NCBI RefSeq assembly: GCF_032062105.1
Contig: NW_026929714.1
Span: 248,001-312,000, forward strand
Reading direction: 5' to 3'
Length of the DNA: 64,000 nucleotides
DNA from: Saccostrea cucullata
Lineage: Eukaryota
Shown: positions 3,001 to 57,900 of the stretch, piece after piece
Position numbering within the stretch: position 1 is the stretch's first letter
How the letters are laid out: each line of letters starts with the position of its first letter
Position numbers and translations under genes: made by a program
Notes under the pieces: generated by a model
What the model saw: only the letters and a program-made list of their open reading frames with translations
Databases searched by the model: none
Told to the model about the DNA's origin: nothing

Positions 3001-6000
3001 ACTGTGTGATAGGTGCCTATCGTTTTAACAGTACGAACTTTTGTATTTAAAAGTCATAAACCATCTTTTATTTTGTGTTTTAGAATCATCTTGATCTATC
3101 TTTTAAACACGCATTTCACCATACATGTATGTTTTATTGTAGGCCCTAAGAACTGTACGTGATTTCATGCATGTTTTTTTTTTTAAAATGCTGTGTTTAA
3201 TTTTTAATTTGGCTCTTATTACTGCACGGGTTTTTAATAAAACTATTTTTTAAAATTGTTTTAATAAAACTGTTTTATTTTTTCTATGGTTCTAAGTTTA
3301 TTTCTATATTTGATTATCCAATACCGGTAGTCAAATAAATTATTTAAAAGTCGGGATCGTTAGTCAAAAGTCGGAAGTGTGAAGGTTATTGCGACCAAAT
3401 ATGTTACATCTTTTTGTGTTGAGAACTCATATTCTATAACATCTTATTGATATTTAATGAGAATTACTTCCAGAGCCGACAATAATCAACGATATCGGAA
3501 GCGGTGTAATAAACGATCTCCGAAGGTTAGCAAACACTCAAAATATAAAGTGATTGAATTATATGTGATTTAATTTTTAGCGCTGGTGACAATTCGCAAA
3601 AATTAAAAGCATAAAAATTAATCTATAGCTTTCTGACACAAATTCGCAAAAATAAATCGACGTAAAAATTTCCAGATTTACGGTAGTTACCTCTCTACAG
3701 AGTGGGGTCCGCCCTGAACACTTGGGCTGGGGGTAGGACTTGGGCAGTGCTCTGTAACTGGCTCCGTACCTCTTACATGTGGCATAGTCTGAAACAGAGG
3801 GAGGATCATTATAATTACAGGCTCAGCTTCTCCACAGTAAAACTTACTAACCAACATTGCAAACGAAGCTAACTCTGAAGACTATGATGAGACTTATATT
3901 ACATCACTTTTTCTTATAAATATATGTCAAAGTTAGGTCAGAAACAATTTACACATTACAATACTGATTGTGTACATGTATTATATGACACAGCTGACAC
4001 AATTTATTGGTAACATTTTGAATAAATTTGGTGTTATAACTTTATGTCAGCAGTGTAGTTTTTTGAATACCACCAAATGAAACAATGTTATACATGTTGA
4101 TAATAACAGTGCATCTAATTTTAAATTCAGGATAACGCCATCATAAACATTGACCTTCAGGGCAATTAGAACAGTACAGCTGGTTTTAATCCAGGATAAT
4201 ACTACCATAAACACTGACCTATTTCCATGGCCAGCTCCCCGCTGACTCTCTCCTTCCCCAGGGCACCTTGGGGTACTGCCTCTGTGGTACCACCCGACTC
4301 CTTGTATCCCAGGAAATCCTTAAACCACTTGTACAACTCAGGGGACCTCCTGCAGAAGGAAAAAAAAAGTTTTTAAATATTGTCTTGTTCTAAAACAATT
4401 AATTTTTAAATAGATTTTAATGTTTAATCTCAGCATAAATACATTTAAATGTATTTAACTTTGTAAAATGCAACAATTCTATAATTAATTTCAAATAAAA
4501 CAAAGATAACGGACTATTGACTTGAATATCATGATTTCATTAAAAAAATTCCAAGGACTATACTGTTTATACACATGTACACTGTATGCATAAATCAATA
4601 TAAAACTGTTAAGCAGTAACTCACTGTAGGAAGGTCTGTACCAGCTGGACCAGCTCTGTACGGGAAATCACCTCCTGGTTAAACAGAACCAGACATCGCA
4701 GGAAATTCTCGTAAACCTCAGGGTGCTTCAGGAACTTCCTCACCTGAAGGAATAAGTTTTGAATTAAAATTAGTTTAAATTTTTTTTTTATTTTTCCCTC
4801 AAAGTCCTTTTAAAAAATTGTACAAAATTCTTAAATTTAGACCCCTTTTTTAAAATCGTAAATGTCTCCAAGTAGATGCATTTATAATAATATTCATTCT
4901 GTATTCTCTTTTATTTTAATTCTCTTTGCACTTTTATGAAAATGCATGAATTTTTTTAAATATATGTAAATAAATTTTTGTTAGCCTTGACCTTTTACCT
5001 GAGAAATATTTAAAATATCCCAATCATTTTAAAAGCAAAAGAAAATTTTAAACATGGCTCTGATATTCACATAACACTCACTTTATCAAAGAAGGCAAAC
5101 TCATTCAGAGTTCCGTATCTTCCGGCCTCAGCGAGTGAGATGTCTTTCAAGGTTCCCGTTCTCTGTTTCTGATGAAAAAAAAATCAATAGTATGAAATAC
5201 GGGTATCATAATGGTCCTCAAATCCTTTTGCTCAAATAAAAACATCAAAGCTTCAAATAAATTTAAGAATTTCATTTTGTCTACAAAGCAGAGCATCCCA
5301 TAATAAAAAGCATTATTAATCCCAACATAGATCACACATGCATAATTTACATTATGAATGCACCCGCTCATCCACAAGTGCTATACTACATCCCTAGCAA
5401 CTTTGTTTTTTTTTATTTCTACATAAAATTTTATTCATAAATAAATGTGAATGGGATTGGGCAGCAGGCAAAGCCTATTGAAGCCCTCATCCTAAACTGT
5501 GTAACTTTGTCATTCTGTTGGTGATTTCGGACCTCTTGTATTTTACTATCTGACAAGCCTTACCTTCTGTGGGGGCTGAGGCCCGCCTGAGGGTCGTCTG
5601 TGCTGATTTCCACTCTTCCCCATCTGACTTTTATTGCCCAGGGAAGGTTTCTTGACGGTAGAGGAGTGGTCATTTCTGACCCCCAGGGAGGAGCTGTCAG
5701 TCTGTAACATGTTCAGCTGTAAAACAAAATATTCAAGGTAAATTGTGTCTGAAGAAATTTTAATCATTTGATCTCAACATTAACTTTATCAACATTTACT
5801 ATATTTCACCAAGAAGGGTAATATTCATGGTCTGCAATAACAATATCTCATATTATAGTGCAAAGACTTATTTGTATCCTTCAACGGATGCAGACAAAAT
5901 AAATGTCATAAATTCCATTACTAAGGTATGTCACTCCATAAACATTTTCCACACAACACTTTCCCTGTACATAAAGTACAGTTACTGGACTTTTACCTCT

Positions 6001-54900: not shown

Positions 54901-57900
54901 CTCATTAAACATCTGATTGCAAGAAGGTAGAATTTTGAAAATTAAAAACCATAAGCTATTACTAATGTCATTAGAATAAAAACACCAATATAAAAATAAG
55001 ATTTCAATCAATCAAACATTACAGATTTCACTAACTGTATGACAACAGCTTATATTTCCTAGCATCCTAAAAATGTTATTAATATTCTATTTAATATTTG
55101 CATTTGGACATACGGTATGTGAATCATTTATGTTCATTTTTCATTTCGTGTTTAAACCATGCCAAAAATTTGTTTACATTGATTTACGTAAATTTAAAAA
55201 TAAAATGACCACACATTAAATGTGAAGAAAAGAAATGCATTGAAAATGAAGTGTCAGATGTGGTAAATAATATCCAATTTGTGAAATCTGTAAATTTGTA
55301 TTAACAAACCTTTGCATATAAAATTAAGTAACTTGATAATTTGAATAAATTATGTATTAAGCATAAATATAACAATTTGACAGAACTTGTGTTACACAGA
55401 ATAAAACAAAGACGCTTGATTTACCACATAAATGTCCTTAGAGGCATGTACCCCAGACTTGAGAAGAATCTGGAGCAATATTTCAAAAAAAATTATTATA
55501 TACATTTTAAATCTAATACTAGGAAAACACAGAAACTAACTTTGTATCTTATATTTGTCAATGGAGGGAGATTCATCTATTTTAGCTTAATCTTTAGTGT
55601 ATTTGATTAAGTTGATTCATGAAAATCTACTTCTTACCCATGTATAGTTTAGTTTTTATCATATCTAACTTTTCTACATCTTTTTTCTTTGAGGGAAACT
55701 TTTACATGAAGTCTTTCATCTTACATTCAAAAATAAATATACAATTAAATTATATCACTGAGAGAGTTAGCAGCCAAGATTCCAGTTCCCCAAGACCAAG
55801 ATCATTTTCCCGAGGCAGAGTCGAGGAAAATAGTCTTGGTCAAGGGGAATAGGAATCTAGGGAACTATTAACATCTAATGAACTAATTTTTAGTAGAGGT
55901 ACAAAAATATACATTTAAAAGACCCAACAAGGAAATTACTGACCACAGGCTGAAACAAGTAAGTAACTTACTGCGGGATCAAAGGAGGTGGGAGCCAGCA
56001 CCAGACTGTCCATAACACCCTGTATTTTGGTGACCAGGGCCAGGATAGAGGCCTGCTCCTGTGACGAGGGGGTCAGGTCATTGTTTCTCTTTAGTAGACA
56101 CTGTGAAAAAAGATAAATAAGGAAATATCTGCATAACTCAACATAGTATTCCTAACACCTGTAGAATGAATACAGATTTACTAGAATGCCTCCGTGGTAA
56201 AGTGTCAGGTCATTGTTTCTCTTTAGTAGACAACATGAAAAAATATACAGATAGCAAAATATCTGAATAGATTAAAATCAGAATCCCTATATACCTATAT
56301 AATAAGAAAAAAGATACAGACAAATAGCAAAATATCTGCATTAGTGGATAGATTAACATCAGTAGCTCAATACACCTTTAAACAACATTTGAATGACAGC
56401 TTTAGTACTTCATGTCCTAGAAGTTACAGACAATAGACTTGACTGTATTTATTGTAGAACATTGTTTATTATTTATCCCAGTATTTCAAGTAGTTTAATG
56501 TCTTTTTATACAATGTAGAGAATCCAACATAAAGAAACAAGGAATACTAACATCTGTAAAAACTTTCTCATCAGGAGTGGGTTTTGTCCTTGGAAATGTT
56601 GATTCACACTGTAAAAGAATGATGATAAAAATGTAAAATGTAAATAAGAAATGCTACACTGGGACATTAGTCAAATAAGGAAATATGTAAACCAAACATA
56701 TGGAAAAAAGAAGAAAAAGACATGTTATCAGATAATTATGATTTACCTGAACCAAATCAAATGGTATGTGAGGAATAAAGGCCCGAAACCTGTAAAAGAA
56801 CAGTACTTTCTTTAATTTAAAGCAATGAAGTGGATTTCACAACTGACAACACCTCAATCTTGCAAAATATAATCATTTAAGATACAATGTATACTGGTTA
56901 AAAGTATCAAACTATCTATCTTCCAAAAAAAATGCTCTATTGATTCAAACTTCACTGTATATGGCAACACATTTTTGTGAGGCATTTATCAAAGGCCCAG
57001 TTTGAATATGATACTGTAAACGTATTACATTTGGCTGTGTATTCTTTTTAGCGCCTTTCGCGGAAAGCAGCCTCCGCTAAATCAAGTACATTACAAAATG
57101 CTTTGTGTATAAAGGTTTATGTAAGGCAGATTCAAAAAGAGCTAAATCAAATCTACGCCAACTTATTGAAAATTCAATTTCTGCCAAATATTGTACACAC
57201 CAAATATAATACATTTACAGTATGCATTAAACTTCAAACATTTTATTCGTGTGTGATATATTTAAAGCATCCCATGACTTACGGGGGTCCAGGTTTAAAG
57301 GGGCCTCCCATGGGGGACATTGGTCTCATCATTCCTCCCCTCATTGGACCTCCTCGTCCTCTCATGTTCCTAGAGGTAAGAAAAAGTCAGCAATCACACA
57401 GAGATGGTTATATGGTAAGGAAACACTGTAATCTCCTGGGTATTTCAATCTTATAATTCTAACATGTTTAATTCAAGCAATTTTTTTTTTCAAATAATGA
57501 TGCTTTGATTCCTTTCAAGAAACATTTAGCAATTATATTTGTAATTCTATACTATATTGTAATTCTTGCCAACACATCACCTAATAGTCCGAAAAATCTG
57601 ATGTTTTCCTGGTCTTTTTACGATTTTGATATTTTACGTGCCAGGAAAATGTCAGAACTGACGCCATTACAAAAACTGGGAAATTGCCATCTCCACTGAA
57701 TAAAATTTCAAAGTCAAAAGTTATCAATAGTACAATACTTAAAGAACTTACATATATAGTTTTTATGGTTCTGACATCTATGAAATAAAAAAAATCTGTT
57801 GAAAAAAGTTTTATCCCACTGTAGATTTTTCTTCATTTCGGACATTTTAAAATATTGCATCTCCTATTAGGCCAGATAAAATTAATCTTTAGATTCTCAT

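What the first reader, a model, noticed from the sequence alone, without database searches (positions are those of the whole stretch)
4125..56240. Recurrent 'exon-edge echoes': intronic copies of exon ends with decoy splice sites in all four conserved genes
Seen: about ten short duplications that straddle exon/intron junctions. SIN3A: 4125-4157, 8697-8745, 9135-9163. XPA: 13615-13812. NSUN6: 27600-27812, 28048-28270. ILF2: 48209-48428, 50312-50350, 54122-54175, 56203-56240. Many keep GTAAG or AG sites. Inference: this looks too frequent for random slippage. It may reflect a junction-focused duplication process (for example repair or recombination linked to transcription or splicing), or it may be survivorship, since junction-spanning duplications leave the protein intact. 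Either way it is a reservoir of alternative splice sites. This is my best candidate for an undescribed phenomenon here, but I cannot confirm it is absent from the literature.
Basis: partly seen in the sequence, partly recalled or inferred. Interest (0 to 1): 0.72.

Follow-up and report, generated by a model that had tools for sequence, protein, structure and literature searches.

The report
Splice-junction tandem repeats in oyster genes
Short stretches that span the ends of exons have been copied head to tail into neighbouring introns in these four genes and at about 2 in 100 other splice junctions sampled; this is a known and likely harmless kind of repeat, but it sits at junctions about four times more often than random placement would give, which passive survival likely explains only in part.

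Summary
All ten echoes are real, and the window holds three more. They are tandem duplications or minisatellites that span or abut a splice junction, a kind already described as amphioxus 'mirages' and the human F7 donor VNTR; this scan has also noted such arrays on other DNA (59 notes, at least 24 genomes). In 1.8 Mb of the same genome (970 predicted introns) I found 40 junction-spanning, 13 edge and 22 mid-intron locally born duplications, against 19/12/43 expected: about 4-fold excess, 7-fold for arrays of 3 or more copies. The window is a hot spot (7 of 100 junctions against 36 of 2093). Copies decay neutrally; every decoy checked would give a frameshift or stop; 44 NSUN6 reads use only the real donors. 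Second genomic copies show fast turnover: two echoes absent, one junction re-expanded to 20 units. A conserved exonic partner (up to 2-fold) and GC content (about 1.4-fold) explain most of the excess. A residual for multi-copy arrays remains, but it leans on a few genes and a small replication set was inconclusive. No support for an alternative-splicing reservoir.

The parts
18..11705 (-). SIN3A-like gene, 16 exons traced in the window (continues beyond base 1)
   Evidence: Spliced ORF intact over 15 exons; Pfam Sin3_corepress, weak PAH
4105..4220 (-). Two copies (period 64) of the intron start plus donor after exon 4219-4349; decoy GT at 4154, use would add 64 nt (frameshift)
   Evidence: 79-81% identical
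8697..8793 (-). Decayed copy (8697-8745) of the end of exon 8746-8988 with an intact donor at 8703; use would add 42 nt ending in TAG. A second genomic copy carries 20 units of a 43-nt exon-end-plus-donor repeat at this junction
9135..9248 (-). 28-nt intronic copy (9135-9162) of exon sequence 9221-9248, no splice site; shared by the second genomic copy
13038..16565 (+). XPA gene, 7 exons
   Evidence: Pfam XPA_N, XPA_C
13384..13818 (+). End of exon 13321-13447 plus donor, and three intronic copies (13610-13818); decoy GT at 13676 and 13804, with an in-frame stop at the first intronic codon
   Evidence: best copy 90% identical
21982..30845 (+). NSUN6-like gene, 9 exons traced (start not traced)
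   Evidence: Pfam Methyltr_RsmB-F; last two joints seen in RNA
25261..25445 (+).
27529..27814 (+). 73-nt unit (64 exon + 9 intron), about 4 copies; decoy GT at 27666 and 27739 score like the real donor at 27593; use would frameshift
   Evidence: 20 reads splice at the real donor, none listed at a decoy
28034..28662 (+). Degenerate short repeats of the donor at 28048 (decoys at 28070, 28085, 28116, 28121, 28260, 28653), all but none usable without stop or frameshift
   Evidence: 24 reads splice at the real donor; weak scores
45967..57369 (-). ILF2 gene, 13 coding exons traced
   Evidence: RNA joints; Pfam DZF_N, DZF_C
47321..47380 (-). Perfect 29-nt tandem pair starting 5 nt after the donor at 47384 (intron only); the second genomic copy has a 38-nt version
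47997..48428 (-). Young 208-221-nt duplication of intron end, AG and 24 exon nt (98-99% identical); upstream decoy AG intact, use would add 208 nt (frameshift, stops); absent from the second genomic copy
50312..50350 (-). Distal donor echo of exon 53064-53180, pushed away by a transposon; GT intact
   Evidence: 31 of 39 identical; adjacent in the second copy, which lacks the element
50386..52987 (.). About 2.6-kb element with terminal inverted repeats, inserted between the two donor echoes (ends approximate)
   Evidence: Sequence; absent from second copy
53000..53112 (-).
   Evidence: 72% identical
54122..54248 (-). Copy of the last 46-48 nt of exon 54201-54303; a clean 73-nt stretch holding it is absent from the second genomic copy
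   Evidence: 88-90% identical
56072..56380 (-). Acceptor echo (56203-56240, AG lost) of exon 55972-56100 plus decayed intronic copies; present but 14 nt shorter in the second copy

Best explanation
These are ordinary DNA-level tandem duplications of 20-220 nt that span or abut a splice junction and likely persist because the exon stays intact and the real splice site keeps being used. Shown: the structures, their neutral decay, their presence/absence and unit-number differences between genomic copies, and a roughly 4-fold excess at junctions. Inferred: (1) birth by slippage or break repair between short microhomologies, then expansion and contraction as a VNTR; (2) duplications inside exons are purged, those spilling over a junction are tolerated; (3) the excess at junctions comes mainly from passive effects: the exonic partner is held by selection so the pair stays recognisable up to twice as long, exon-containing units are GC-richer and such units are found more often, and a permanent exonic template next to a decayed echo re-seeds arrays at the same junction. 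Decoy sites are by-products; rare use would go to nonsense-mediated decay.
For: Copies carry intron start or end next to the exon piece, i.e. a genomic template (inspection). Mismatches echo vs exon by codon position: 43 of 441, 40 of 428, 72 of 443; 66 synonymous, 89 non-synonymous, several stops, over 44 events: what a neutral copy beside a constrained exon gives, implying about 1.6-fold slower divergence than an intron-intron pair (my arithmetic). Decoy GT intact in 78 of 101 copies and AG in 23 of 33, in line with flanking identity of 92% and 83%: no sign of selection for or against decoys. Duplication rate in neutral DNA rises with GC (mid-intron 3.7 to 15.4, intergenic 10 to 26 per 100 kb), and 814 of 1940 junction 60-mers are 40% GC or more. 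Junction rate 31-47 per 100 kb of target is only 2-3 times the intergenic 15.4. Without the three richest genes the excess over a 2-fold null is not significant (p=0.13), nor with TRF as detector (p=0.06). Turnover: 2 of 7 window features checked are absent from second copies, one junction has 20 fresh 43-nt units bounded by a 7-nt microhomology beside the old echo; a HECT-gene donor array has 15 vs 30 units. 44 NSUN6 reads use the real donors only. Same behaviour reported for mirages and F7.
Against: Arrays of 3 or more copies: 20 junction-spanning vs 7 mid-intron against 6.8 vs 18.1 expected, p=3e-4 even under a 2-fold null, p=0.014 under a 3-fold null in the relaxed set. With exons masked, so that no anchor helps detection, arrays of 3 or more copies are 20 near a junction vs 7 mid-intron against a target share near 0.4 (my count). 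Strong arrays: 17 per 100 kb at junctions, 0.9 mid-intron, 3.2 intergenic. Microhomology pairs are fewer across junctions than mid-intron (0.97 vs 2.5 six-mers per window; GC-rich ones 0.24-0.30 vs 0.17). Acceptor echoes often keep the AG (23 of 33), which a first-site scanning rule does not cover. Rates differ between genes (p=0.002) for no reason I found.
Confidence: 0.6

Rival explanations
1. Junction-spanning DNA is intrinsically more prone to duplicate or to expand into arrays, for example through exon chromatin, gene-body methylation repair, recombination, or polymerase pausing and R-loops at splice sites.
For: Multi-copy excess of 6-9-fold survives 2- to 3-fold nulls and exon masking; within-gene null p=5e-4 at 2-fold, gene bootstrap 3.0-10.6; the same SIN3A junction duplicated twice; strong donor arrays have short intronic parts, mostly 3-20 nt.
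Against: The replication set of housekeeping-gene loci did not confirm it (4 vs 2.2 expected, p=0.15; 3 vs 2.1, p=0.36); 14 of the 40 events come from two genes; intron-only duplications within 30 nt of a junction are barely raised (13 vs 12.4); per-base coverage is not higher at edges; no clear trend with exon CpG o/e (13 of 402, 11 of 319, 15 of 207, 0 of 29 introns); with transposon-borne satellites counted there is no excess (1.1-1.2).
Confidence: 0.27
2. The echoes are kept or used as alternative splice sites (isoform reservoir, NMD-coupled regulation, or extra U1 landing sites).
For: Many decoys score as well as the real site. Two pseudo-sites are used in human 6-16 and CBS (PMC1557585 Introduction). 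One dynein acceptor array has a 66-nt stop-free in-frame unit. The SIN3A 8697 echo differs from its exon only at third positions (7 of 7).
Against: Neutral mismatch pattern overall and no excess conservation of GT/AG; the 7-of-7 case is 1 of 44; all 16 window decoy positions tabulated give a frameshift or stop; echoes come and go between genomic copies; no listed raw-read joint at a decoy in ILF2 or NSUN6, though reads may come from alleles without the echo.
Confidence: 0.08
3. The pattern is an assembly or detection artefact (collapsed haplotypes, chance similarity, false exons inside repeats).
For: The assembly holds divergent second copies; my exons outside the window are predictions (34 of 44 held-out window exons exact); at least one counted event rests on a false exon inside an array and one on array copies absorbed into an exon.
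Against: Reversed control gives 0 intronic clusters at 30 bits; copies are 70-99% identical with synonymous-biased differences; several are shared by independently assembled second copies; 729 of 1049 exons have homology support and 16 of the 31 non-window events listed touch such exons.
Confidence: 0.05

Closest known systems
'Mirage' minisatellites of amphioxus (Adh3, troponin C, globins BflGb6/BflGb9, PGBD5). Read: passages of PMC3087553 and one passage of PMC3902484; the original Adh3 paper not seen
   Same: Tandem duplications of exon-intron boundaries, at both 5' and 3' sites; units of tens to about 160 nt; many but not all keep GT/AG; unit number differs between haplotypes; normal splicing reported; suggested to be general in that lineage, mechanism called unclear.
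   Different: Here a mollusc; counted over 970 introns with a placement null; many are two-copy, decayed relics rather than arrays; somatic instability and intron gain not tested.
Human donor-spanning VNTRs: F7 IVS7 37 bp, 6-16, CBS, lamin B2, PDGF (PMC1557585; abstract and Introduction read)
   Same: First unit spans the exon-intron boundary, so the donor is reiterated; polymorphic unit number; most upstream donor used.
   Different: Single-gene cases, donors only; two show use of proximal pseudo-sites; no genome-wide frequency in the parts read.
Internal tandem repeats at exon-intron boundaries in human segmental duplications (PMC2812944; passages read)
   Same: Minisatellite units near 30 bp, about 4 copies, at boundaries, variable between copies.
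   Different: Young paralogs, with reported new introns and splice changes; here conserved genes with no splice change seen.
Microhomology-mediated tandem duplication (PMC13167724; passages read)
   Same: Candidate birth mechanism: neutral, reversible, depleted from coding regions; 6-7-nt microhomologies bound two arrays here.
   Different: The words 'splice' and 'intron' do not occur in its main text; microhomology is unclear for most events here.

Membership tests
Mirage / splice-junction-spanning minisatellite | Tandem unit spans an exon-intron boundary, with one unit in the real exon | tested here: met
   9 of 13 window clusters and 40 of 75 intronic clusters at 30 bits; 4125, 25261 and 47321 are edge-adjacent only
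Mirage / splice-junction-spanning minisatellite | Copies reiterate GT or AG, many but not all intact | tested here: met
   GT 78 of 101, AG 23 of 33
Mirage / splice-junction-spanning minisatellite | Unit number varies between haplotypes | tested here: met
   15 vs 30 units; one decayed echo vs 20 units at SIN3A; whether second copies are alleles or paralogs is not settled
Mirage / splice-junction-spanning minisatellite | Regular splicing undisturbed | tested here: inconclusive
Mirage / splice-junction-spanning minisatellite | Somatic length instability | not testable with these tools
   Needs multi-tissue or single-molecule data
Tandem exon duplication with mutually exclusive splicing | Whole exon copied with both splice sites and kept under coding constraint | tested here: not met
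   Window copies are partial; neutral codon-position pattern with stops; one whole-exon case outside the window has a stop
Retro-copied (cDNA-templated) insertion | Copy joins two exons without intron sequence | tested here: inconclusive
   None seen on inspection, where most copies carry intron sequence; no systematic search of downstream exon starts was run
Transposon-borne satellite (146-180 nt units) | Unit dispersed over many loci | tested here: not met
   Echo units are local to their own exon; the dispersed satellites were found and masked separately

The most novel reading that the evidence does not exclude
In this genome, DNA spanning a splice junction is a true hot spot for minisatellite birth or expansion, several-fold above what the conserved exonic partner and GC content explain, with hot genes where 10-15% of introns are affected and the same junction re-amplifying repeatedly. 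That would make mirages a general, measurable, transcription- or exon-chromatin-linked mutational class in animals and a direct test bed for intron gain and splice-site turnover by tandem duplication.
Probability: 0.27. Interest if true: 0.7.

Novelty: new member of a known kind. Interest (0 to 1): 0.42.

Why it matters
The structure is known, but the papers I could read treat it gene by gene and call its mechanism unclear. Here about 4% of sampled introns carry one, and most of the strong locally born intronic arrays start at a junction. Even under the passive explanation this gives many natural ladders of equal-strength splice sites, at acceptors as well as donors, polymorphic within one assembly, for testing how splice sites are chosen and whether tandem duplication shifts donors or makes introns. 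Practically, such arrays mislead gene predictors and read mappers (they did mine in three places).

Tried and rejected
Per-base coverage by distance from junctions showed no edge peak; it is dominated by a few long arrays, so I moved to event counts. Counting transposon-borne satellites removes the excess; I treat them as one origin copied many times and report both. Coding constraint on echoes, suggested by SIN3A 8697, was rejected over 44 events. More microhomology seeds at junctions: rejected by total count. Link to methylation by exon CpG o/e: no clear trend, and only 29 introns were in high-CpG genes. A contig joint 48228-48473 in run X1 has a 21-nt side that fits the real exon start equally, so it is not evidence of decoy use. 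Five haplotig-like pairs gave 29 indels of 8-300 nt, 6 tandem-like, too few for a mutation-level test. Nicotinic-receptor loci (30) were fetched as an unmethylated contrast but are single-exon matches and were not used. Ten duplicate regions were left out of counts. PMC6823432 and PMC10078293 (passages) did not bear on the question. The 40 kb downstream of the window and the second copy of the 4125 region were not obtained, so the extent of the hot region and the age of that echo stay open. Small word shares of runs X1-X20 were not used as evidence.
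Full report
Observation. I read the whole window and traced exons by hand. SIN3A, XPA, NSUN6 and ILF2 splice to intact ORFs with AG/GT at every junction used and match the expected Pfam families. ILF2 joints and the last two NSUN6 joints are seen in RNA. All ten echoes exist. A diagonal scan with composition-aware scores finds 13 clusters in the four genes outside masked dispersed repeats: 9 overlap an exon, 3 abut a junction, 1 is mid-intron; the reversed control has no exon-overlapping hit in the window. 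The label 'oyster' comes from earlier scan notes on this genome and from my recall of 166-nt oyster satellites; I did not test it.

Anatomy. The typical donor echo is a head-to-tail unit made of the exon's last 20-64 nt, GT and a few to tens of intron bases (NSUN6: 64+9 nt, about 4 copies). Acceptor echoes mirror this. In the window all 16 decoy positions tabulated would give a frameshift or a stop, though many score as well as the real site.

Is it general? The window is G000:C11851:248001-312000 in a 1.17-Gb assembly. I analysed 1,430,329 bases plus 379,833: dynein and myosin genes, four arbitrary 100-kb stretches, 200 kb beside the window, and HECT, DEAD and chaperonin loci as a replication set. 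This is not a random sample; about two thirds of the introns are from dyneins. Exons came from my own predictor (34 of 44 held-out window exons exact; 729 of 1049 exons of the first set with homology support). In 970 introns, at 30 bits and period up to 250, there are 24 donor-spanning, 16 acceptor-spanning, 13 edge and 22 mid-intron clusters; the reversed control has none; uniform placement of the same units expects 9.7, 9.7, 12.4 and 43.3 (p=9e-8; ratio 4.1). Many are clean arrays on homology-supported exons, such as 52 nt x 9, 48 nt x 4 and 29 nt x 2.6 in dyneins. TRF as an independent detector gives 3.5, a relaxed intron set 3.6, a gene bootstrap 3.0-10.6. The window is rich: 7 of 100 junctions against 36 of 2093 (p=0.003), partly because it was picked for this. 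Results against: counting transposon-borne satellites the ratio is 1.1-1.2; per-base coverage shows no edge peak; the replication set alone is not significant (4 vs 2.2; 3 vs 2.1), although it holds large arrays of 15, 8 and 34 units that were classed as edge or fell outside the strict intron set; two genes give 14 of the 40 events; at least two counted events involve mispredicted exon limits.

Survival or hot spot? A pair with one copy in an exon diverges more slowly. Mismatches by codon position (9.8%, 9.3%, 16.3%) fit a neutral copy beside a constrained exon and imply about 1.6-fold, at most 2-fold, longer visibility. Neutral DNA richer in GC shows 2.5-4 times more duplications (part of this may be my scoring), worth about 1.4-fold for junction windows by my weighting. 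Together these approach the observed 4. Against a 2-fold null p is 0.007 for all events, 0.13 without the three richest genes, 0.06 with TRF. Arrays of three or more copies are harder to explain: 20 vs 7 against 6.8 vs 18.1 (p=3e-4 at 2-fold; p=0.014 at 3-fold in the relaxed set), and 20 near vs 7 mid when exons are masked. That residual is the open part of the finding.

Turnover. Searches found second copies of the SIN3A and ILF2 regions, none for NSUN6 or XPA. Their exons differ by 5.8-5.9%, about as much as the RNA reads do; they may be divergent alleles or paralogs. Of seven features covered, 9135, the old 8697 echo, 56203 and the 50312/53000 pair are shared, 47321 has a different unit, and 54122 and 48209 are absent. 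At the 8746 donor the second copy has 20 units of a 43-nt exon-end-plus-donor repeat, bounded by a 7-nt match between the exon and the start of the old echo. I infer that a decayed echo beside a permanent exonic template can re-seed an array. Direction is not known for 54122: there the second copy's donor sits where the window's decoy is, which would be a donor turnover if the change was a deletion. A HECT-gene donor array has 15 and 30 units in two contigs.

Function. GT and AG survive in copies at about the rate of their flanks. In three RNA-seq runs 20 and 24 reads splice at the two real NSUN6 donors and no listed joint uses a decoy; none of the 15 ILF2 joints shown uses one in raw reads, 9 more were not shown. 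Power is low and the reads may lack the echoes.

Known systems. The structure is published: 'mirages' in amphioxus, at both boundaries, variable between haplotypes, without splicing harm (passages of PMC3087553 and PMC3902484), and donor-spanning VNTRs in five human genes with first-site selection (PMC1557585 abstract and Introduction). PMC3087553 was in my own search; I read it after note e1-9823008 pointed to it. That look-up listed 59 similar notes in at least 24 genomes, which are unchecked leads. Ten paper searches found no genome-wide test of junction enrichment and nothing on oysters; the library lacks most subscription papers, and I read no supplements.

Verdict. Real, a new member of a known kind. 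Most likely neutral duplications kept visible by exon constraint (0.6); a junction-linked excess in birth or expansion is possible (0.27); functional use is unlikely (0.08). Interest 0.42, for the prevalence, the turnover and the testable residual.

Noticed in passing
L281/L283 (G000:C8477, about 4750-5600): Second copy of SIN3A carries 20 units of a 43-nt exon-end-plus-donor repeat; several units read as the exon's own peptide in one frame, some with a stop.
   Followed up: yes
window 54122-54200 vs L280: The second ILF2 copy lacks 73 nt so that its working donor lies where the window's decoy is: possible splice-donor turnover through an echo; direction unknown.
   Followed up: partly
L280-L283 vs window: Second copies of SIN3A and ILF2 differ by about 6% in exons and by many 400-4500-nt insertions; very divergent alleles or old duplicates.
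   Followed up: partly
window 16970-19780 and 25634-26938: 166-nt satellite arrays (15 and 5 copies) inside a dispersed element with a short microsatellite at its start; the family recurs in many introns sampled and in L280. Helentron-like by recall only.
   Followed up: partly
window 32165-34240 (-): Single-exon ORF of 691 aa with NHL-repeat match and a long Ser/Lys-rich tail.
   Followed up: partly
window 40581-44399 (+): Five-exon gene of unknown family with a coiled-coil-like exon (no Pfam hit for 43043-43234) and an 11-nt degenerate intronic satellite at 42574-42910.
   Followed up: partly
window 1180-3685: Degraded transposase-like element in a SIN3A intron; its ends match other loci.
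   Followed up: no
window 62616-64000: About 580-nt duplicated and inverted blocks of a dispersed repeat; 22-nt degenerate array at 61161-61769.
   Followed up: no
L114-L117 (G000:C12694:25001-65000): A dynein gene with 10 junction-spanning and 7 mid-intron duplications in 65 introns, against 0-2 junction events in nine other dynein regions; includes a 66-nt stop-free in-frame acceptor array and a whole-exon copy.
   Followed up: partly
L162-L163 (G000:C2965, about 618800-623100): One gene with arrays at several consecutive junctions, including an exon flanked by an acceptor array (31 nt) and a donor array (51 nt).
   Followed up: partly
L215/L278 (G000:C15623, about 431785-433040): 37-nt x 34 array of a polypyrimidine tract plus AG running up to a DEAD-box exon.
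   Followed up: partly
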